Virus record (IMG/VR): IMGVR_UViG_3300045988_174840
Direction: 5' to 3' (one strand)
Length of the DNA: 10,951 nucleotides
From: a virus
Shown: in pieces, positions 1,840-9,210 of the stretch
Numbering within the stretch: position 1 is the stretch's first letter
How the letters are laid out: each line of letters starts with the position of its first letter
Program-made: the position numbers and the translations under genes
The notes under the pieces: model-generated
Told to the model about the DNA's origin: nothing
Database searches by the model: none
Seen by the model: only the letters and a program-made list of their open reading frames with translations

Positions 1840-2342
1840 TTCCAATTTTGCACGATTCTCAGAGGAGCGTTACAACAACCAGAAGCCAAAGCACTTTCTC
1901 CTCTTGTTAAAGAGGAAGAAACATCTCCACGAGCTACTAGTTTACCGCATTTTTTGCAATAGATTTCATACTTATACAGATCACGATGAGGTTTCCATAT
2001 CTGTCTTTCCGCGAATCGTTTAGGATTTTTAATTCCCATTCTTCGCATCTCTGCTTTCCAATACATATCATGACCATGAGGTTTTCCAGTATCCCATATT
2101 ACAAAAGCATGAGCCAATTCATGCATTGTCGTAGTAATAATTGCTTCTTTTGTTCCAAATTTTAATAATTTTTCAGAAAATTCAATAGATTCAATGTTCA
2201 TAGTACGATCATTTGTATGTTCAAATACAACTCGACCTAACATAGTAACTAAATTAGGATTAATTACGATTGGACAGTAAATTGTTTTATTTCTTTCTTT
2301 TGCGATATAATTACATAAGCTAAGCATTTCTTTTTCAGTCAT
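1836..2342 (-). CDS. SprT-like zinc metalloprotease (168 aa): HExxH domain plus C-terminal zinc ribbon
   Basis: TMHELAHAF (HExxH) is followed by the downstream His/Asp of SprT/Wss1-like folds. The C-terminus has CKKCGK...GCCNAP (a Cys4 ribbon). The gene lies directly upstream of the AAA ATPase on the same strand. Confidence 0.75.
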   Translation of the reverse strand: MTEKEMLSLCNYIAKERNKTIYCPIVINPNLVTMLGRVVFEHTNDRTMNIESIEFSEKLLKFGTKEAIITTTMHELAHAFVIWDTGKPHGHDMYWKAEMRRMGIKNPKRFAERQIWKPHRDLYKYEIYCKKCGKLVARGDVSSSLTRGESALASGCCNAPLRIVQNWN

Positions 2343-2406
2343 ATATTATATACCTCTTCATATTTTATTTTATTTCATTTCAATAGAGAATTACAGTATT
2401 AATTCT

Positions 2407-2426
2407 TAGTTAATTGTTATTAACTA
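2407..2426. promoter_or_regulatory. 20-bp palindrome TAGTTAAT-TGTT-ATTAACTA between the divergent SprT-like and HTH genes. Candidate operator.
   Basis: Perfect 8-bp inverted arms seen directly in the sequence. It sits in the divergent promoter region. Confidence 0.35.
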
Positions 2427-2509
2427 TATAACTTTTTTCTTTTAATATATATATTATATTATAATTTTATAAAAAAATCAATGAGAAATTATCGGCAAGT
2501 AGTTAAATA

Positions 2510-2538
2510 TTGAAAAAGTATAAAAAATATGTTATAAT
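2510..2538 (+). promoter_or_regulatory. Sigma-A promoter TTGAAA-17-TGtTATAAT for the small HTH gene
   Basis: TTGAAA is at 2510-2515 and TG-extended TATAAT at 2533-2538. The ORF-track start at 2510 is the TTG of this -35 hexamer. Confidence 0.6.
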
Positions 2539-2572
2539 ATTTAATATAAACAAGAGAAAAGAGGACACGGGA

Positions 2573-2749
2573 TTGACAAGAGAAGAATTAAGTGCGGAAT
2601 TGGGTATAAGTGAGAATAGAATATTACGTCACTGGCGGGAAGTGTGTAATAGCTATGAGCGGATTGGGATTAAGTTGATTAAAAGAGGGAAGGGAAAAAA
2701 CGCGGAGTATGGTATTTTAAAAAAAGACGAGACTATAGCAAGATTTTAG
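2573..2749 (+). CDS. Small HTH DNA-binding protein (58 aa) with a TTG start. The ORF-track N-terminus at 2510..2572 is promoter sequence, not coding.
   Basis: The SD AAAGAGGA (2557-2565) sits 7 nt before the in-frame TTG at 2573. Product MTREELSAELGISENRILRHW..., a helix-turn-helix pattern. Confidence 0.5.
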   Translation: MTREELSAELGISENRILRHWREVCNSYERIGIKLIKRGKGKNAEYGILKKDETIARF

Positions 2750-3253
2750 GTGTAGGTGAGGGTATTTATGGTAACGGTTGAAAATACAGATGGGACTATA
2801 GATGTGTATGGTAATCTTGGTTGCGTAATCATATAAATATAGAGCGAAACAAAAGAGAAAGAATCGGGGAATTATGTAAATATTTTATTTCTGGAAAAAT
2901 ATGTGGCGGCAAGGAGAAAATTTTAATAAAAGATATTGATAATAACTATACTAGATGTCTTTCATATGAATCGGAATAAGAAGAGGAGTTTGTTGCGGAT
3001 GAAGCTGGATATAAAGATCTTTGAAGTAAGAATTGCCGCATATAAAAAATAGAGGATTTTCTTTGGAGAGAATTTTAAGATAAGAGGATATTATGACGAG
3101 AAAAGTTTAACTGTTTTGTTGAAAGACGAAATTAAATGTCGAAATGTACACTTTTTCAACAAAATTGTTAAAAAAATATGTTTATATTAAAAGGACGAAA
3201 TTTGTTAAGTTTCTTCCAAAAATTTTAAAGAAAAGTGAAAGGAGTTTAACAAA

Positions 3254-3868
3254 ATGGAAAATTTAACGAATATAATGTATTTATATCTATTGATTCATCA
3301 AGGACATTTTGAAAAGGTGAATTATAGTAAGATATCTAAAGAGTTAGGTGTAACTAGACAAACACTATCAAAACAATATAATTCATTACTAGATAATGAA
3401 ATGATAATAAAAGATGATTTTGGTTTTATTAAAGTTAAAGAAGTTTTAGAATTTGATGAAGAAGATTTAGAAATTATTAAAAATAAAATAGTAGAATATC
3501 CTTCTTCTTATATTGGATATTTACTATTAAAAAGAAGATTATTATACGAAACAGATGCTTCTATTTGTAGTATACTAAAGATAAGTGAAAAATTTATTAA
3601 GAATTATCAACAAAAAATTATTTTTGATAAGAATAATGGAGAAGAAGATGTAGTAAACTATATATATGCTATTGTTTTAAATAAAGAAATAAAGTACGTA
3701 GGTTCAACAGAAGATTTAATAAACAGGATACAAATTCATTGCAATAAAAGAAAGTTTTTAGCAGAGAATAATTTTATTATTTTAGAAAAATGTTCGAGGA
3801 AGAATAGATTTGATAGAGAATCTTTTTATAGAAAGTTATTTAATCCAGAATGGAATACAATTATTTAG
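3254..3868 (+). CDS. Fusion protein: N-terminal winged-HTH + C-terminal GIY-YIG nuclease domain (204 aa)
   Basis: SD AAAGGAG is 9 nt upstream. The N-terminal NYSKISKELGVTRQTLSKQYNSL is wHTH-like. The C-terminal NYIYAIV...KYVGSTEDLINRIQIH...FDRESFY...NPEWN matches GIY-x(10)-YIG with the conserved Arg, His, Glu and Asn. Confidence 0.75.
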   Translation: MENLTNIMYLYLLIHQGHFEKVNYSKISKELGVTRQTLSKQYNSLLDNEMIIKDDFGFIKVKEVLEFDEEDLEIIKNKIVEYPSSYIGYLLLKRRLLYETDASICSILKISEKFIKNYQQKIIFDKNNGEEDVVNYIYAIVLNKEIKYVGSTEDLINRIQIHCNKRKFLAENNFIILEKCSRKNRFDRESFYRKLFNPEWNTII

Positions 3869-3879
3869 AGGAAGGAAAA

Positions 3880-4239
3880 ATGGAAACTAGAGAAAATCAA
3901 AAGGTGGTTACAACTATGAAAGCTTTACATGACAGTAATAATTTATATTCTCCAGTTAATATTGAAGCAGCAAGTAAAGCAATGTCTTTGTTAAAACCTA
4001 ATACTTTTAAAATTTGGTTTTATTTAGGAAAAAACCAAGATCAATATACTTTTGCATTATCTAAAATAGATGTTATGAAATTTTGTAATATATCGCGGTC
4101 TACTTATTTATCTTCTATAAAGGAATTGATTGATACACATTATCTAGTTCCAGATAAAGATGGCTCTAATCATTATAATTTTTATGAATTTCCTCAAGAA
4201 GTAGAAGATGATTTGATTATAACAATAAATAAAGGATAA
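3880..4239 (+). CDS. Winged-HTH DNA-binding protein (119 aa), a possible origin-binding or regulatory protein
   Basis: GAGGAAGGAAAA precedes the ATG at 3880; the ORF-track start at 3850 lies inside the upstream gene. FKIWFYLGKNQDQYTFALSKIDVMKFCNISRSTYLSSIKELIDTHYL resembles replisome-organiser/Rep-type wHTH. The iteron region begins 10 bp after its stop. Confidence 0.65.
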   Translation: METRENQKVVTTMKALHDSNNLYSPVNIEAASKAMSLLKPNTFKIWFYLGKNQDQYTFALSKIDVMKFCNISRSTYLSSIKELIDTHYLVPDKDGSNHYNFYEFPQEVEDDLIITINKG

Positions 4240-4249
4240 AATAAAGATA

Positions 4250-4289
4250 GGTATAATTTTAATACCCTTAAGGGTATTAAAATTATACC
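4250..4289. repeat. Perfect 18-bp inverted repeat GGTATAATTTTAATACCC-TTAA-GGGTATTAAAATTATACC (an iteron core in inverted orientation)
   Basis: The arms 4250-4267 and 4272-4289 are exact reverse complements. Confidence 0.9.
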
Positions 4290-4291
4290 TC

Positions 4292-4318
4292 AGTGGTATT
4301 AAAATTATACCAGAAATA
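4292..4318 (+). repeat. Iteron-like 27-bp direct repeat AGTGGTATTAAAATTATACCAGAAATA, copy 1. The core GGTATTAAAATTATACC also occurs at 4273-4289.
   Basis: Identical to 4466-4492. Both copies are followed by similar AT-rich TATATTATA tracts. Confidence 0.85.
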
Positions 4319-4338
4319 ATACATATATTATATTATAA

Positions 4339-4406
4339 AAGAAGTAATTTCATTACTTCGTATTCAAGCACTTCGTGCTTTCATACTCGTAATGAAATTA
4401 CTTCTT
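4339..4406. repeat. Large composite palindrome: 18-bp outer arms AAGAAGTAATTTCATTAC / GTAATGAAATTACTTCTT enclosing an inner hairpin AGCAC-TTC-GTGCT
   Basis: The outer arms 4339-4356 and 4389-4406 are exact reverse complements. The inner hairpin is at 4367-4379. Confidence 0.85.
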
Positions 4407-4465
4407 AGCCGCCGATAATTTTGCAAAATGTCGAAAAAGTGTAACACAATATAATATAATATAAT

Positions 4466-4492
4466 AGTGGTATTAAAATTATACCAGAAATA
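4466..4492 (+). repeat. Iteron-like 27-bp direct repeat, copy 2
   Basis: Exact copy of 4292-4318, 174 bp away. Confidence 0.85.
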
Positions 4493-4545
4493 TTACATAT
4501 TATACTATATTATATTATATAACTATTATATAATAATAATAATAT

Positions 4546-4582
4546 AGGTAATGTATCATACCTTCGGTATGATACATTACCT
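4546..4582. repeat. Perfect 17-bp-stem hairpin AGGTAATGTATCATACC-TTC-GGTATGATACATTACCT (a UUCG-type loop)
   Basis: Exact inverted repeat. It lies at the boundary between the AT-rich origin-like region and the purine tract. Confidence 0.85.
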
Positions 4583-4599
4583 TAGTGTAAATTAAAATG

Positions 4600-5400
4600 A
4601 AGAGTTTTATGCGGGGTGGGGTATTTAGTAGTTGAATCCGCTTTGTTTTAGAGGGACTCTTGTTTAATTTTAAAATGTCAAGGAACGTTTTAAAAAATGA
4701 TTTGAAAATTTTAAGGTTTAAGTAAATTAGGAAAGTTTTTCGGAAGGCATGAGAAAAAGTAAGAAAAGAAGTATGGTATATTTAGAGAATGGCAAAGAAT
4801 ATTACTGAATAATAACAAAGAGTTAGAGAGTTTTGTTAAAAACGAGTTATGGTTTTTTGGTTAGAAAAGTGTGGAAGAGGGTATTTAAATTATAAGAGAA
4901 GTATGGGAGTGCGGAATTGAATTTAATTAAAGTGCTTCCGCATTTAAAAAGCAAGGTTAAATAAAAATTGCGGGTTACAGAATTGCTTAAATAAAATTAT
5001 TAAAATTTTGCGTGAGGAGTTTGATTTTGGAGAGAATTAAGGGTAGCTTTAATAAAATATAAAGATTGGATTAAAGGTGCGTAAGGTTAAGATAATAAAA
5101 TATTTTAGAATTAGAGGGAATTGATGATAGGTTAATAAAAATAATAAGACTGAGTAAAGAGAATTTAATGTTTGGATTAAGAGAAAGTATAAGTTAGATT
5201 AAGAGAGAAGAAGGTTGAAGTATATAAAATAATAAGCGGAAGTGAGGATTTTGAGATTGGGTTAAGAGAGGAGTGAGATTAGAGTGAGAGAGCGTAGAAT
5301 TGGAGTGTAGAGAGGATGAGAGTGAGGCGTGAGTGGAGAAAGGATAGAGCGAGGCTGAAAAAATGCGAGAAAAAGGTGAAAAAAATTGTGAGAGTGAAGT
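4600..5400 (+). repeat. ~800-bp non-coding tract that is almost cytosine-free on the + strand (G/A/T only). It carries degenerate GATTAAGAGAG-type repeats.
   Basis: By eye there are about 40 C in about 800 nt, against abundant G. The motif (G/A)GATTAAGAGAG(G/A)AG recurs near 5068, 5174, 5196 and 5258. There is no SD-led ORF of meaningful length. Confidence 0.8.
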
Positions 5401-5430
5401 GCTCAGCCTCACTCTCCCTATCCTACCTCA
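5301..5430. repeat. Long imperfect inverted repeat GAGAGGATGAGAGTGAGGCGTGAG / GCTCAGCCTCACTCTCCCTATCCTACCTC at the 3' end of gene 5438..5833. Candidate terminator or structured element.
   Basis: Arms at about 5301-5330 and 5401-5430 pair over about 20 bp with one bulge. The strand composition flips exactly here. Confidence 0.5.
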
Positions 5431-5437
5431 GAGCTCT

Positions 5438-5833
5438 TTATACGAGCCCAGAGAGGATTTTTCTAATAATTTCATCATCTGATAAAGCTTTTTCATTCTC
5501 CCGTTTTACATCTCTTTTTAAATCTGTATCTACTCTTTTAATTCCAAATGATCTTCCCCTTGGAATATCACCCATTTTACCAAAAGCTTCAATAGTCTTT
5601 TCCATCTTAGTAAACTCTGTCATAAGATTTTTTCTATCCTCAGCAGACTCTTTTTTATCAATAGCTCCAAGAGCAATTCCATACGCTACAAACGCGTCAA
5701 CCAATTTGTTTCTCGCATCTACAATCGCCTTTGTGCGGGTTTCCTTAGTCTGCTCCGCCTCGATTTCAGCTCTTACCGCCTTAAGAATTTCATCTGTTGT
5801 TTTGCCTTCTGCGATCATTCTTTTAATATCCAT
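5438..5833 (-). CDS. Hypothetical alpha-helical protein (131 aa)
   Basis: SD AAAGGAGA is 7 nt before the ATG. Its own promoter lies at 5881-5909. Codon usage is visibly GC-richer (GCG/GCC/CGC) than neighbouring genes. No motif recognised. Confidence 0.65.
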   Translation of the reverse strand: MDIKRMIAEGKTTDEILKAVRAEIEAEQTKETRTKAIVDARNKLVDAFVAYGIALGAIDKKESAEDRKNLMTEFTKMEKTIEAFGKMGDIPRGRSFGIKRVDTDLKRDVKRENEKALSDDEIIRKILSGLV

Positions 5834-6498: not shown

Positions 6499-6900
6499 TT
6501 ACTCCTCTACAGCTTCCTCTTCCTCTTCCTCTTTTGCAAGAGAGAAATAAGGAACTCTTTTTTCAACTGTTCTAACTACCTCTCCAGATTCGATAAGCTG
6601 TTTAAGAAGAGCCGATAATTTCTGAGAAGAAAGTTTACTCATTTCAGAGTTTTCCTTAATCATGGTTGAAACTGTAACAGGTTTATCAAATAACTCCAAA
6701 GCTACAAGAATAAGTTTTTTGACTTCCTCATTTTCTTTCTGGTTTTTGGTTTTTTTACCGCTGGAAGATTTTTTATTCAACAGCTCGATTTCATGTCTGA
6801 GAAAGTTAAGTGCTTCTTCTTTTGGTTCAAAGCTACTTTCTTCCAGAAAAGCACTGATAGTTTCAAACCAATCTTTTTTTGTCATTTTGTCTTTCATCAT
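6499..6900 (-). CDS. Winged-helix-like protein with a poly-Glu C-terminal tail (~133 aa), paralog A. Start is ATG 6900 (or 6897); the ATG at 6906 is too close to the SD.
   Basis: The C-terminal 85 aa (KPVTVSTMIKENSEMSKLSSQKLSALLKQLIESGEVVRTVEKRVPYFSLAKEEEEEE) are about 85% identical to 8803..9210. Helix-turn-helix-wing pattern. Promoter at 6934-6962. Confidence 0.75.
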   Translation of the reverse strand: MMKDKMTKKDWFETISAFLEESSFEPKEEALNFLRHEIELLNKKSSSGKKTKNQKENEEVKKLILVALELFDKPVTVSTMIKENSEMSKLSSQKLSALLKQLIESGEVVRTVEKRVPYFSLAKEEEEEEAVEE

Positions 6901-6933
6901 ATTCATTACCTCTTTCTTTCTTTTGATATATTT

Positions 6934-8802: not shown

Positions 8803-9210
8803 TTACTCTTCTTCCTCAACTTCTTCTTCTTTTGCAAGAGAAAAGTAAGGAACTCTTTTTTCAACTGTCCTGACCACTTTGCCTGCCTCAATCATTTTTT
8901 TCAACAGTGCAGATAACTTCTGAGAAGAAAGCTTACTCATTTCGGCGTTCTCTTTAATCATTGTAGTTACCGTGACAGGTTTACCAAACAGCTCTAAGGC
9001 AATTCCAATAAGTTCCATAAGCTCCTCATTTTCTTTAATGTGAGCTGTTTTCTTTTTGCCTGGTGCTGAAGATTTCTTATTTAACAGTTCAATCTCGTGA
9101 TTGATGAAGTCAAGTGTTTCTATTTTTTTGTCAAAGTTTTCGGTTTTTTCTACGATGCCAACCAGCAGTTTGAAAAAGTCTTTTTTTGTCATTTTTGTTG
9201 TGTTTGTCAT
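8803..9210 (-). CDS. Winged-helix-like protein with an acidic C-terminal tail (135 aa), paralog B
   Basis: SD AAGAGGA is 8 nt before the ATG. Promoter at 9323-9351. The C-terminus KPVTVTTMIKENAEMSKLSSQKLSALLKKMIEAGKVVRTVEKRVPYFSLAKEEEVEEEE matches paralog A. Confidence 0.75.
   Translation of the reverse strand: MTNTTKMTKKDFFKLLVGIVEKTENFDKKIETLDFINHEIELLNKKSSAPGKKKTAHIKENEELMELIGIALELFGKPVTVTTMIKENAEMSKLSSQKLSALLKKMIEAGKVVRTVEKRVPYFSLAKEEEVEEEE

What the first reader, a model, noticed from the sequence alone, without database searches (positions are those of the whole stretch)
4250..4590. Iteron-plus-palindrome cluster immediately after two wHTH genes: putative replication origin or other protein-recognition locus
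What the sequence shows: the 17-mer GGTATTAAAATTATACC occurs three times in direct orientation (4273, 4295, 4469) and once inverted (4250), forming a perfect 18-bp inverted repeat centred on TTAA. Two of the copies are part of a perfect 27-bp direct repeat and an imperfect ~45-bp one. Between and after them lie poly-AT runs, a 68-bp composite palindrome (4339-4406) and a perfect 17-bp hairpin (4546-4582). Established knowledge: direct 17-22-bp iterons plus AT-rich DNA next to a gene for a wHTH initiator is the canonical theta-plasmid or phage origin layout. The region starts 10 bp after the stop of a wHTH gene. Alternatives are a resolvase res/dif-like site or a partition centromere.
Basis: partly seen in the sequence, partly recalled or inferred. 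Interest (0 to 1): 0.6.

Follow-up and report, generated by a model that had tools for sequence, protein, structure and literature searches.

The report
Likely phage replication origin with iterons
The repeat-and-hairpin cluster is real and is most likely the replication origin of a common, uncultured ~133-kb human-gut phage, built like the classic phage lambda origin and placed just after the gene for its small origin-binding protein.

Summary
The window holds four exact copies of one 17-mer, a 42-bp perfect palindrome, a 27-bp exact direct repeat, a 68-nt composite hairpin and a 17-bp perfect hairpin. None is expected by chance.

Each 17-mer is a dyad site (GGTAT-N7-ATACC). The first three are spaced 22-23 bp apart, starting 10 bp after the stop of a 119-aa winged-helix gene. 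That protein belongs to a large family (1,703 cluster representatives). Most sampled members match phage families annotated as replication initiation, O-like or DnaD-like loader proteins.

About ten independent lineages share one order:
- family gene;
- 3-8 lineage-specific dyad repeats;
- an almost invariant 11-mer, GAAATATTACA, with ATAWTACA repeats in a 93% AT tract;
- a long, perfectly paired hairpin of non-conserved sequence.

In two long-form relatives, the repeats and the same 11-mer lie inside the gene, just after the winged-helix coding part, in two different reading frames. That is the phage lambda O/ori layout and argues against a simple operator.

Replication function is inferred, not shown; I put it at about 0.65. 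The main rival is an operator/promoter array for hairpin RNAs (about 0.15). This is a new member of a known kind. An adjacent 790-nt cytosine-depleted non-coding stretch remains unexplained.

The parts
3880..4239 (+). Gene for a 119-aa winged-helix protein (start METRENQK). It is a stand-alone homologue of the N-terminal origin-binding domain of phage O-like/DnaD-like replication initiators and the presumed binder of the 17-mers.
   Evidence: Pfam HTH_36 only at E = 0.005, below the curated cut-off. The family profile finds 1,703 cluster representatives. Of 89 members, 61 hit PHROG 270 'replication initiation protein' and only 1 hits a transcriptional regulator. The structure model is a winged helix with an N-terminal strand, pLDDT 71.6. 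The PDB fold search gives only generic winged-helix matches.
3254..3868 (+). Gene for a 204-aa protein: an N-terminal HTH module plus a C-terminal GIY-YIG nuclease domain. It overlaps the start region of the next gene. Its role in the module is unknown.
   Evidence: GIY-YIG at E = 1.9e-6. The N-terminal ~125 aa is shared with L019, L020 and L021. The nuclease domain is absent in L021, and an unrelated HNH gene takes this position in L029. No detectable relation to the winged-helix protein (hhalign probability 2%).
4250..4266 (.). Binding-site repeat 1 (GGTATAATTTTAATACC): dyad GGTAT-N7-ATACC with its centre inverted relative to repeats 2-4.
4273..4289 (.). Binding-site repeat 2. Together with repeat 1 it forms the 42-bp perfect palindrome 4249-4290.
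4295..4311 (.). Binding-site repeat 3, 22 bp after repeat 2. It directly abuts box 1.
4312..4338 (+). Box 1 (AGAAATAATACA, one mismatch to the family 11-mer) plus an AT tract (93% A+T). Presumed unwinding element of origin unit 1.
4339..4406 (.). Composite hairpin/palindrome: 18-bp perfect outer stem, conserved internal loops (CTTCGTATTC / TCATACTCG), 6-bp inner stem, TTC loop (CGAAG on the minus strand).
   Evidence: DNA folding gives -21 kcal/mol, z = -9.5. Equivalent hairpins with unrelated stem sequences occur in L019, L021, L022/24/25 and L043. All 124 of 124 pairs are Watson-Crick, with no G-T. A C-G to T-A double change separates L027 from the window.
4407..4416 (+). G+C-rich block AGCCGCCGAT directly after the hairpin. 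Similar blocks (GCGGGCGGAT, GGCCGCGGAG, GGCGCCCGGAT, TACGGAG) follow the hairpins in relatives.
   Evidence: Read directly from the sequences. Not tested statistically.
4431..4460 (+). Sigma-70-like promoter (TCGAAA-18-TATAAT, 10 of 12 matches). Its start point would fall on repeat 4. The sequence block is shared with L021 and L027.
   Evidence: It is absent from variant L037.
4469..4485 (.). Binding-site repeat 4, part of a 174-bp duplication of repeat 3 plus box.
   Evidence: L037 lacks exactly one 174-bp unit.
4486..4545 (+). Box 2 (AGAAATATTACA; exact family 11-mer GAAATATTACA at 4487-4497) plus a 60-nt tract of 93% A+T with ATATTAC-type short repeats. Presumed unwinding element of origin unit 2.
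   Evidence: The ATATTAC copy number varies among strains.
4546..4582 (.). Perfect 17-bp hairpin with a TTC loop. On the minus strand the apex reads CCGAAGG.
   Evidence: The loop is flipped to GAA in strain L035. CCGAAGG is the mini-hairpin of the RSF1010 ssiA priming signal according to PMC13037366.
4600..5389 (+). Adjacent 790-nt non-coding stretch depleted of cytosine on the + strand (C 4.2%, purines 66%). Whether it belongs to the origin (for example as an R-loop or primer transcript) or is a separate non-coding RNA is unknown.
   Evidence: No Rfam match.
5390..5416 (-). Intrinsic terminator of the convergent minus-strand operon. It marks the right border of the non-coding region.

Best explanation
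The cluster is the replication origin (ori) of a ~133-kb gut phage, and the 119-aa winged-helix protein encoded just upstream is its origin-binding protein.

Proposed mechanism, all inferred:
- Dimers of the protein occupy the four 17-bp dyad sites (GGTAT-N7-ATACC). The first three sites sit about two helical turns apart.
- This complex stresses the DNA next to the last site, where the conserved 11-mer GAAATATTACA and the ATAWTACA repeats form a 93% AT unwinding element.
- Transcription reading through from the upstream operon, or from the local promoter at 4431-4460, may help opening.
- Once the DNA is single-stranded, the long perfect palindromes fold into hairpins. Their minus-strand apexes (CGAAG, CCGAAGG) resemble the stable GNA mini-hairpins of known priming signals and could direct primase or replisome loading.

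The window carries two tandem origin units (repeat + box + AT tract + hairpin) produced by a 174-bp duplication.

Shown here: the sequence anatomy, its conservation across lineages, and the family relationship of the protein. Inferred: protein binding, DNA melting, priming, and replication itself.
For: 1. The repeats are real and confined to one cluster.

2. The protein family is tied to replication.
- The profile of the 119-aa protein finds 1,703 cluster representatives, many with the domain at the N-terminus of 200-340-aa proteins.
- Eight of 10 long members, and 61 of 89 sampled members, match PHROGs annotated 'replication initiation protein', 'O-like' or 'DnaD-like helicase loader'. Only 1 of 89 matches a transcriptional regulator.

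3. The same order recurs in many lineages: family gene, then 3-8 dyad repeats at about 22 bp with lineage-specific sequence, then an AT-rich tract, then a hairpin. It is seen in L019, L020, L021, L022/24/25, L027, L043, L040 and L044/45. The more distant clade L028-31 keeps the gene, the repeats and the box but has no composite hairpin.

4. The repeat sequence changes with the protein clade (GGTATTAAAATTATACC; GGTATATTAAATTTTA; GTGGTTTAAGTTTTAAATAAC; CGTTAT-N11-ATAACG; CCCCCCAATGGGGGG). This fits specific recognition by the protein.

5. The 11-mer GAAATATTACA is exact on the sense strand at the 3' edge of the repeat array in 12 of 17 loci. About 0.34 exact copies are expected in the 136-kb pool.

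6. In long-form relatives L042 and L039 the repeats and this 11-mer lie inside the gene, just after the winged-helix coding part. The 11-mer is read in two different frames (R-N-I-T versus E-I-L-Q), so it is conserved as DNA. [quoted passage not shown]

7. In ~24-kb phages (L044/45) this protein is the only one in the early region matching any replication family.

8. The hairpins keep their structure but not their sequence. All 124 of 124 pairs are Watson-Crick with no G-T, a loop flip occurs in L035, and a double compensatory change occurs in L027. These point to selection on DNA palindromes.

9. No plus-strand terminator lies between the strong promoter at 2510-2538 and the cluster.
Against: - No experiment or replication-related read-out (marker frequency, whole-genome skew) was available.
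- The window protein itself falls below the Pfam cut-off (E = 0.005) and hits no PHROG directly. The link to initiators is transitive, through its family, and the PHROG labels are themselves predictions.
- The protein has no C-terminal helicase-recruiting domain, and no helicase, primase or loader gene lies within about 8 kb.
- The PDB fold search gave only generic winged-helix matches, with E about 0.1.
- The sites are dyad-symmetric like ordinary operators. A -10-like hexamer sits at a fixed position in the box. In clade L028-31 a gene follows 70-90 nt downstream in the same direction.
- Element L043 also carries a separate 230-aa initiator-like gene, so short forms might be accessory proteins.
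- The composite hairpin and the local promoter are missing from strain L037. They may therefore be dispensable, unless that gap is an assembly collapse.
Confidence: 0.65

Rival explanations
1. Operator array plus promoters. The winged-helix protein is a transcription factor bound to four dyad operators. The last operator overlaps a promoter whose -10 element lies in the conserved box. The products are short hairpin RNAs and/or the long purine-rich non-coding RNA, or a protein gene in other clades.
For: - Each site is a 5-bp inverted repeat separated by 7 bp, typical of dimeric regulators.
- A -10-like hexamer (TACAAT, TATAAT or TACATA) sits 8 nt after the last repeat in all close loci. The inferred start point lies about 6 nt before the hairpin at 4339.
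- The promoter-like site at 4431-4460 is conserved, and its start would fall on repeat 4.
- In L028-31 a gene in the same orientation begins 70-90 nt after the box.
- In L021 and L022 a hairpin followed by a T-run lies after the box.
Against: - No usable -35 element sits at a consistent distance (my reading).
- The box and repeats lie inside long-form genes, in two reading frames.
- 61 of 89 family members match replication-initiator families and only 1 matches a regulator family.
- No further sites exist elsewhere in 11 kb.
- The hairpin stems have 0 G-T pairs in 124, and a loop flip is tolerated. That is unusual for a selected RNA.
- No Rfam match.

The two readings are not exclusive: lambda also needs transcription at its origin.
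Confidence: 0.15
2. Packaging or genome-end signal. The repeats are binding sites of a small-terminase-like winged-helix protein (like cosB/Nu1), or they mark a terminal-repeat boundary, with the neighbouring nuclease helping to cut.
For: - Four assemblies end in or just after the repeats: L020, L023, L026 and the 137-kb L027.
- A nuclease gene (GIY-YIG or HNH) precedes the winged-helix gene in several clades.
- The phage is related to Herelleviridae, which have long terminal repeats (for the relationship; the terminal repeats are from my own knowledge).
Against: - Six contigs of 74-135 kb run straight through the locus at different internal positions. The contig breaks are explained by the 27-49-nt direct repeats.
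- No terminase is present in the window.
- The small phages L044/45 have their own small and large terminase genes about 2 kb further on.
- Family members match initiator families, not terminase families.
Confidence: 0.05
3. Partition centromere bound by a TubR/ParB-like winged-helix adaptor.
For: - Weak fold and sequence resemblance to TubR, with E 0.2-0.5.
- Clustered repeats next to the gene.
Against: - No ParA, ParM or TubZ-type NTPase gene was identified next to the gene in any locus examined; the Pfam and PHROG annotations seen covered only part of the neighbouring genes.
- The resemblance is no better than to many other winged-helix proteins.
- The repeats and box lie inside the coding sequence in long forms.
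Confidence: 0.04
4. Ends of an insertion element, or a res/dif-type recombination site.
For: - Inverted and direct repeats are present.
- The distant-clade loci carry integrase and invertase genes some kilobases away.
Against: - None of the ten largest ORFs scanned in the window is a transposase or recombinase.
- The repeats are clustered on one side of the gene and do not bracket a unit.
- The same locus is stable across strains. The only variation is loss of one tandem unit.
Confidence: 0.02

Closest known systems
Phage lambda origin (ori-lambda) with the O initiator; also Stx phages
   Same: - Several initiator-binding repeats followed by an AT-rich tract next to the last repeat. The number of repeats varies between relatives: 4 in lambda, 6 in Stx phages (PMC7466680).
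- The cis elements are tied to the coding region for the N-terminal DNA-binding domain. In the long-form relatives L039 and L042 they lie inside the gene, as in lambda.
- Family members match 'replication initiation O-like' PHROGs.
- From my own knowledge: lambda repeats are also dyad-symmetric, a palindrome follows the AT tract, and transcription near the origin activates it.
   Different: - Here the protein is only the N-terminal-domain homologue (119 aa), and the origin lies after the stop codon.
- No P-like loader gene is adjacent.
- The sequences are unrelated to lambda.
- An 11-mer (GAAATATTACA) is shared across clades that have different repeats.
- The hairpins are much longer (15-19-bp stems).
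RSF1010/R1162 oriV (RepC iterons, AT-rich segment, ssiA/ssiB hairpins for RepB' primase)
   Same: - The order is repeats, AT-rich segment, then large palindromes.
- The hairpin apex CCGAAGG at 4546-4582 (minus strand) is the same mini-hairpin sequence reported in ssiA. GCGAAGC apexes occur in relatives (PMC13037366).
   Different: - No RepC, RepA or RepB' homologues were detected.
- The hairpins here all have the same orientation relative to the gene rather than lying on opposite strands.
- Priming at these hairpins has not been tested.
Vibrio PLE satellite origin with RepA_N initiator, and the ICP1 phage nuclease Odn
   Same: - Semi-palindromic repeats form the origin and are read by the initiator's N-terminal DNA-binding domain.
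- Odn combines a DNA-binding domain with a GIY-YIG-superfamily nuclease domain, the same domain order as the 204-aa protein encoded just upstream here (PMC8263062).
   Different: - The nuclease's N-terminal module here shows no detectable similarity to the winged-helix protein.
- The nuclease is encoded beside the repeats in the same genome, not in a rival genome.
- No evidence that it cuts this site.
pAMbeta1/Inc18 theta replicons (RepE); from my own knowledge, not checked here
   Same: - The origin lies immediately downstream of the initiator gene.
- Read-through transcription supplies the primer.
- A hairpin primosome-assembly site (ssiA) lies a short distance downstream.
   Different: - RepE is a large monomeric protein with a single site, not an array of dyad repeats.
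- No homology was tested or seen.

Membership tests
Lambda-type (O-like) phage replication origin | Adjacent initiator with an N-terminal winged-helix origin-binding domain of the O-like/HTH_36/DnaD-like group | tested here: met
   Met indirectly. The window protein alone is sub-threshold (HTH_36 E = 0.005). Its profile joins a family of 1,703 representatives, and 61 of 89 sampled members hit replication-initiator PHROGs.
Lambda-type (O-like) phage replication origin | Three or more repeated initiator-binding sites in helical phase | tested here: met
   Four exact 17-mers. The first three are spaced 22-23 bp apart and the fourth lies 174 bp further on. 0 of 200 shuffles match this. Relatives carry 3-8 sites.
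Lambda-type (O-like) phage replication origin | AT-rich unwinding tract flanking the proximal repeat | tested here: met
   4312-4338 and 4486-4545 are 93% A+T and abut repeats 3 and 4. The conserved 11-mer lies at that edge in 12 loci.
Lambda-type (O-like) phage replication origin | Origin located inside the initiator gene, between the domains | tested here: not met
   In the window the cluster starts 10 bp after the stop codon. The feature is met in the long-form relatives L039 and L042.
Lambda-type (O-like) phage replication origin | C-terminal domain of the initiator that recruits the helicase loader | tested here: not met
   The protein has 119 aa and a single domain. The gene downstream in clade L028-31 is unrelated to the C-terminal parts of long forms.
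Lambda-type (O-like) phage replication origin | The protein binds the repeats and the fragment supports initiator-dependent replication | not testable with these tools
   Needs EMSA or footprinting and a replication assay.
Iteron theta plasmids (Rep_3/RepA type) | Rep protein with two winged-helix domains (Pfam Rep_3 or relatives) | tested here: not met
   No Rep_3 or other plasmid Rep family among the Pfam hits. No megablast match to 72,556 plasmids.
Iteron theta plasmids (Rep_3/RepA type) | Purely direct 17-22-bp iterons bound by monomers | tested here: inconclusive
   Three copies are direct and one is inverted. Each copy is internally dyad-symmetric, and clade L022 has them all in the opposite sense.
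Single-strand initiation (ssi) / G4-type priming hairpins | Stable hairpin with a GNA triloop closed by C-G (GCGAAGC or CCGAAGG) on the template strand | tested here: met
   The minus-strand apexes are CCGAAGG (4546-4582) and CGAAG (4339-4406). GCGAAGC occurs in L019, L021 and L022/24/25. The motif is defined in PMC13037366.
Single-strand initiation (ssi) / G4-type priming hairpins | Primase starts synthesis at the hairpin | not testable with these tools
   Needs a priming assay.
Intrinsic transcription terminators | G+C-rich stem followed by a T-run on the transcribed (+) strand | tested here: not met
   The scan finds no plus-strand terminator in 2300-5500. The hairpins score only on the minus strand.
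Known RNA families (Rfam 15) | Covariance-model match | tested here: not met
   No match within 4240-5437, even at E up to 1.
Type III (TubR/tubC) or other partition centromere | Partner NTPase gene (TubZ, ParA or ParM) in the same operon | tested here: not met
   None in the window or in the neighbouring genes of any locus, as far as those genes were annotated. Resemblance to TubR only at E 0.2-0.5.
cos/pac packaging site | Adjacent terminase genes and/or fixed genome ends at the site | tested here: not met
   No terminase in the window. Six contigs of 74-135 kb cross the site at different internal positions.
Insertion sequence ends | Transposase flanked by the repeats, with target duplications | tested here: not met
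   No transposase. The repeats are clustered and do not bracket a unit.

The most novel reading that the evidence does not exclude
The locus may represent a portable minimal replicon used across uncultured gut phages and integrative elements. It would consist of:
- a stand-alone O-type N-terminal domain that reads clade-specific dyad repeats;
- a universal 11-mer, GAAATATTACA, with ATAWTACA repeats, acting as a common melting or loading signal. This could be read by the invariant N-terminal NQK arm of the protein or by a host factor;
- perfect palindromes with GNA mini-hairpin apexes that serve as primase entry sites;
- in the 133-kb phage, an adjacent 790-nt cytosine-depleted segment that is transcribed into a purine-rich RNA, forming a stable R-loop that primes or licenses replication.
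Probability: 0.15. Interest if true: 0.6.

Novelty: new member of a known kind. Interest (0 to 1): 0.4.

Why it matters
- It gives a concrete, testable origin and origin-binding protein for a prevalent but uncultured ~133-kb human-gut phage. A neighbouring protein of this phage is indexed in 340 blocks of the public collection.
- It provides a simple sequence signature (family gene, dyad repeats, GAAATATTACA) that could annotate origins for a protein family with about 1,700 cluster representatives.
- Such minimal replicons are useful starting points for vectors in hard-to-manipulate gut bacteria.
- They also help in reading replication activity from metagenomes.
- The design itself is classical, so the conceptual surprise is modest.

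Tried and rejected
- **Stop-codon recoding.** Recoding TGA or TAG opens no ORF in 4240-5437. Recoding TAA gives only minus-strand artefacts in this AT-rich DNA. The region is non-coding.
- **Known RNAs.** No Rfam match in the region at E up to 1, and no tRNA in the window.
- **Close DNA relatives.** Megablast of the window against GenBank phages and PLSDB plasmids found nothing. tblastn of the winged-helix protein and of two family members against phages also found nothing. No characterised phage could serve as an anchor.
- **Chance copies of the 17-mer.** Of 18 viral contigs with one exact copy, only one is a true relative; the rest share no proteins with the window.
- **Solved structures.** Foldseek against PDB gave only generic winged-helix hits at E of 0.08 or worse. 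Profile searches of PDB sequences gave nothing significant.
- **'Split O gene' idea.** I tested whether the gene after the repeats in clade L028-31 encodes the missing C-terminal domain. It shows no similarity to long-form members.
- **Odn-like mimicry.** I tested whether the HTH-GIY-YIG protein copies the initiator's DNA-binding domain. hhalign probability is 2%.
- **Synteny with Herelleviridae.** The region around the homologous ATPase in an Enterococcus phage holds tRNA and terminase genes and is not informative.
- **Formal covariation counting.** MAFFT could not keep the unrelated stems in register, so I counted the pairs with a script instead.
- **A sigma-70 promoter with its -35 in the last repeat.** The spacing and the hexamers are not consistent across loci.
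Full report
**Observation**

- The 17-mer GGTATTAAAATTATACC occurs exactly at 4273, 4295 and 4469, and inverted at 4250. None of 200 shuffles reached this count.
- The degenerate dyad GGTAT-N7-ATACC finds only these four sites in the window.
- Copies 1 and 2 form a 42-bp perfect palindrome at 4249-4290.
- A 27-nt exact direct repeat lies at 4292-4318 and 4466-4492, inside a 49-nt repeat of 86% identity, 174 bp apart.
- The composite hairpin 4339-4406 and the 17-bp hairpin 4546-4582 fold far better than shuffles, with z from -8.3 to -9.5.
- The tracts after repeats 3 and 4 are 93% A+T.

**Context**

The window is phage-like. It carries an ATPase (PHROG 2376, E = 6e-102), a SprT-like protein and an exonuclease. 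The ATPase is about 44% identical to those of ~140-kb Herelleviridae.

A neighbouring protein is indexed in 340 blocks of the public collection. Human-gut contigs of 132-135 kb carry the whole locus at different internal positions. The genome is therefore about 133 kb, and the locus is not a fixed assembly end.

The repeats lie in a small plus-strand island at 2343-5437, inside otherwise minus-strand genes. This island contains:
- a strong promoter at 2510-2538;
- a small HTH gene;
- an HTH-GIY-YIG gene at 3254-3868;
- the 119-aa winged-helix gene at 3880-4239;
- 1.2 kb without ORFs under any stop-codon reassignment.

The minus-strand operon arriving from the right ends at a terminator at 5416-5390.

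**The protein**

Alone, the protein only reaches HTH_36 at E = 0.005. A profile built from it and five homologues finds 1,703 cluster representatives. About half are stand-alone proteins of 105-140 aa. The rest are 200-340 aa with this domain at the N-terminus.

Eight of 10 long members, and 61 of 89 sampled members, match PHROGs annotated replication initiation protein, O-like initiator or DnaD-like helicase loader. One of 89 matches a transcriptional regulator.

The predicted fold is a winged helix preceded by a strand. PDB comparisons are non-specific.

**Comparative anatomy**

Relatives were recovered from viral, metagenome and genome collections. The order is the same in all of them. The sequences were read.

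| Loci | Repeats after (or in) the family gene |
|---|---|
| Window, L019, L020, L027 | GGTATTAAAATTATACC |
| L021 | GGTATGAAAATTRKACC |
| L022/24/25 | Same site, opposite sense |
| L028-31 | GGTATATTAAATTTTA-like |
| L043 | GTGGTTTAARTTTTAAATMAC |
| L042 | CGTTAT-N11-ATAACG |
| L040/44/45 | CCCCCCAATGGGGGG |

The repeats number 3-8 at about 22-bp spacing. After them comes an AT-rich tract and then, in most lineages, a hairpin. Clade L028-31 has no composite hairpin.

At the 3' edge of the repeats, the closer subfamily carries the 11-mer GAAATATTACA. It is exact in 12 loci, against about 0.34 copies expected in the 136-kb pool. Two to four ATAWTACA repeats usually follow it.

**The decisive observation**

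In the long-form genes of L042 (212 aa) and L039 (341 aa), the repeats and the same 11-mer lie inside the coding sequence. They sit directly after the winged-helix part and are read in two different frames, so the 11-mer is conserved as DNA. [quoted passage not shown] It is hard to reconcile with a plain promoter or operator for a downstream gene.

In ~24-kb phages (L044/45), this protein is the only early-region product with any replication-family match.

**The hairpins**

Composite hairpins with the same architecture occur only in this intergenic position. The architecture is a 13-19-bp outer stem, conserved internal loops, a short G+C-rich inner stem and a 3-nt loop. They are present in the window, L019, L021, L022/24/25 and L043.

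- Their stem sequences are unrelated between loci.
- All 124 pairs examined are Watson-Crick, with no G-T.
- Strain L027 shows a C-G to T-A double change in the stem.
- Strain L035 has the loop of the 17-bp hairpin flipped from TTC to GAA.

These properties fit selection on DNA palindromes rather than on an RNA.

On the minus strand the apexes read CGAAG and CCGAAGG in the window, and GCGAAGC in relatives. These are the stable GNA mini-hairpin motifs described at the phage G4 priming site and in the RSF1010 ssiA signal recognised by RepB' primase (PMC13037366). This is a lead, not a test.

**Strain variation**

- L037 lacks exactly one 174-bp unit: repeat 3, box 1, the composite hairpin and the promoter-like site.
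- L035 has an assembly gap in the same place.
- The ATATTAC repeat number varies between strains.

The window thus carries two tandem origin-like units. The second unit (repeat 4, box 2, AT tract, simple hairpin) may be sufficient. An assembly collapse cannot be excluded. The contigs that end in the repeats (L020, L023, L026, L027) are explained by these repeats.

**Mechanism proposed (inferred)**

- Dimers of the winged-helix protein fill the phased dyad sites.
- The adjacent conserved AT-rich box opens, possibly helped by read-through transcription. No plus-strand terminator lies between 2510 and the cluster.
- The exposed palindromes fold and could guide priming.

**Rivals**

An operator/promoter array for hairpin RNAs is the main alternative. 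It is supported by the dyad symmetry of the sites, a fixed -10-like hexamer in the box, the promoter-like site at 4431-4460, and the downstream gene in L028-31. It fails on the in-gene cases and on the family annotation.

Packaging site, partition centromere and insertion-element ends lack their defining partners.

**Verdict**

This is a real, conserved protein-recognition locus. It is most probably a lambda-like replication origin served by a stand-alone N-terminal-domain initiator (confidence about 0.65). It is a new member of a known kind and of moderate interest. The adjacent cytosine-depleted 790-nt stretch (C 4.2%) is unexplained and may deserve its own follow-up.

Noticed in passing
window 4600-5389 (also L019 2270-2900, L022 1640-1895, L024 1290-1545, L021 6610-7000): A 790-nt non-coding stretch is extremely depleted of cytosine on the + strand: C 4.2% (2.6% over 5000-5389) against 14.7% for the window, with purines at 66-71%. 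It has no ORF under any stop-codon recoding and no Rfam match. The composition is conserved in relatives, and near-identical strains differ only by scattered SNPs. It could be a long purine-rich non-coding RNA or an R-loop-forming segment. The density of GGA and Shine-Dalgarno-like motifs is 2-3 times that of the rest of the window.
   Followed up: partly
window 2750-3253: A second purine-rich stretch (C 7.3%) without an ORF of 60 aa or more lies between the small HTH gene and the HTH-GIY-YIG gene. A motif GAGGGTATTTA recurs at about 2758, 4608 and 4878, and after the hairpins in L019 and L021.
   Followed up: no
window 3254-3868: This protein has an N-terminal HTH module and a C-terminal GIY-YIG nuclease domain, with apparently intact GIY/YIG, Arg, Glu and Asn motifs. 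It is encoded directly before the origin-binding protein. The nuclease domain is absent in L021, and an unrelated HNH nuclease gene takes this position in L029. The domain order is the same as in the origin-directed nuclease Odn of phage ICP1 (PMC8263062).
   Followed up: partly
L035, L037, L034 and L027 versus window 4292-4582: Natural or assembly variants: L037 lacks exactly one 174-bp unit; L035 has the 17-bp hairpin's loop inverted (TTC to GAA) and an N-gap over the composite hairpin; L034 and L035 carry an extra ATATTAC repeat; L027 has a compensatory C-G to T-A change in the hairpin stem.
   Followed up: partly
L042 2889-3527 and L043 2894-3262: These genes contain in-frame TAG codons where the database proteins have glutamine. 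These elements therefore appear to read TAG as Gln (stop-codon recoding).
   Followed up: partly
L020, L023, L026, L027 (contig ends): Four independent assemblies, including a 137-kb contig, break inside or just after the repeat cluster. One scaffold has an N-gap there. The repeats are an assembly hazard.
   Followed up: yes
window 6499-6906 and 8803-9210 (minus strand): Two paralogous 135-aa acidic proteins share the C-terminal part ...KPVTV.TMIKEN.EMSKLSSQKLSALLK...VEKRVPYFSLAKEEE. A homologue is present in L019. There are no family matches.
   Followed up: no
P0010 (478 aa): One family member carries two tandem copies of the winged-helix domain, followed by a long acidic tail.
   Followed up: no
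L019 1700-2230: An extra 99-aa ORF is inserted after the hairpin. It is surrounded by several 10-bp-stem hairpins with GAA loops (TTAGTCAACT-GAA-AGTTGACTAA twice, plus related GGGCAACTGAAAGTTGTCC and GGACAACCGAAGGTTGCCC).
   Followed up: no
window 2510-2749: The strongest sigma-70-like promoter of the region (TTGAAA-17-TATAAT, with TG) lies at 2510-2538, inside the mechanically called 79-aa ORF. The real gene probably starts at the TTG at 2573 and encodes an HTH protein of about 58 aa.
   Followed up: no
L021 7000-8300: Downstream of the origin-like region in this relative, the base composition changes abruptly. About 450 nt are C-rich and G-poor, then about 800 nt are G+C-rich with repeated CCATATG-containing units. 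There is no obvious ORF.
   Followed up: no
L043 1643-2335: The same small integrative element carries the short-form gene with the full repeat/box/hairpin array and also a separate 230-aa initiator-like gene (PHROG 4707, E = 4e-27). Short forms may therefore work alongside a second replication protein.
   Followed up: partly
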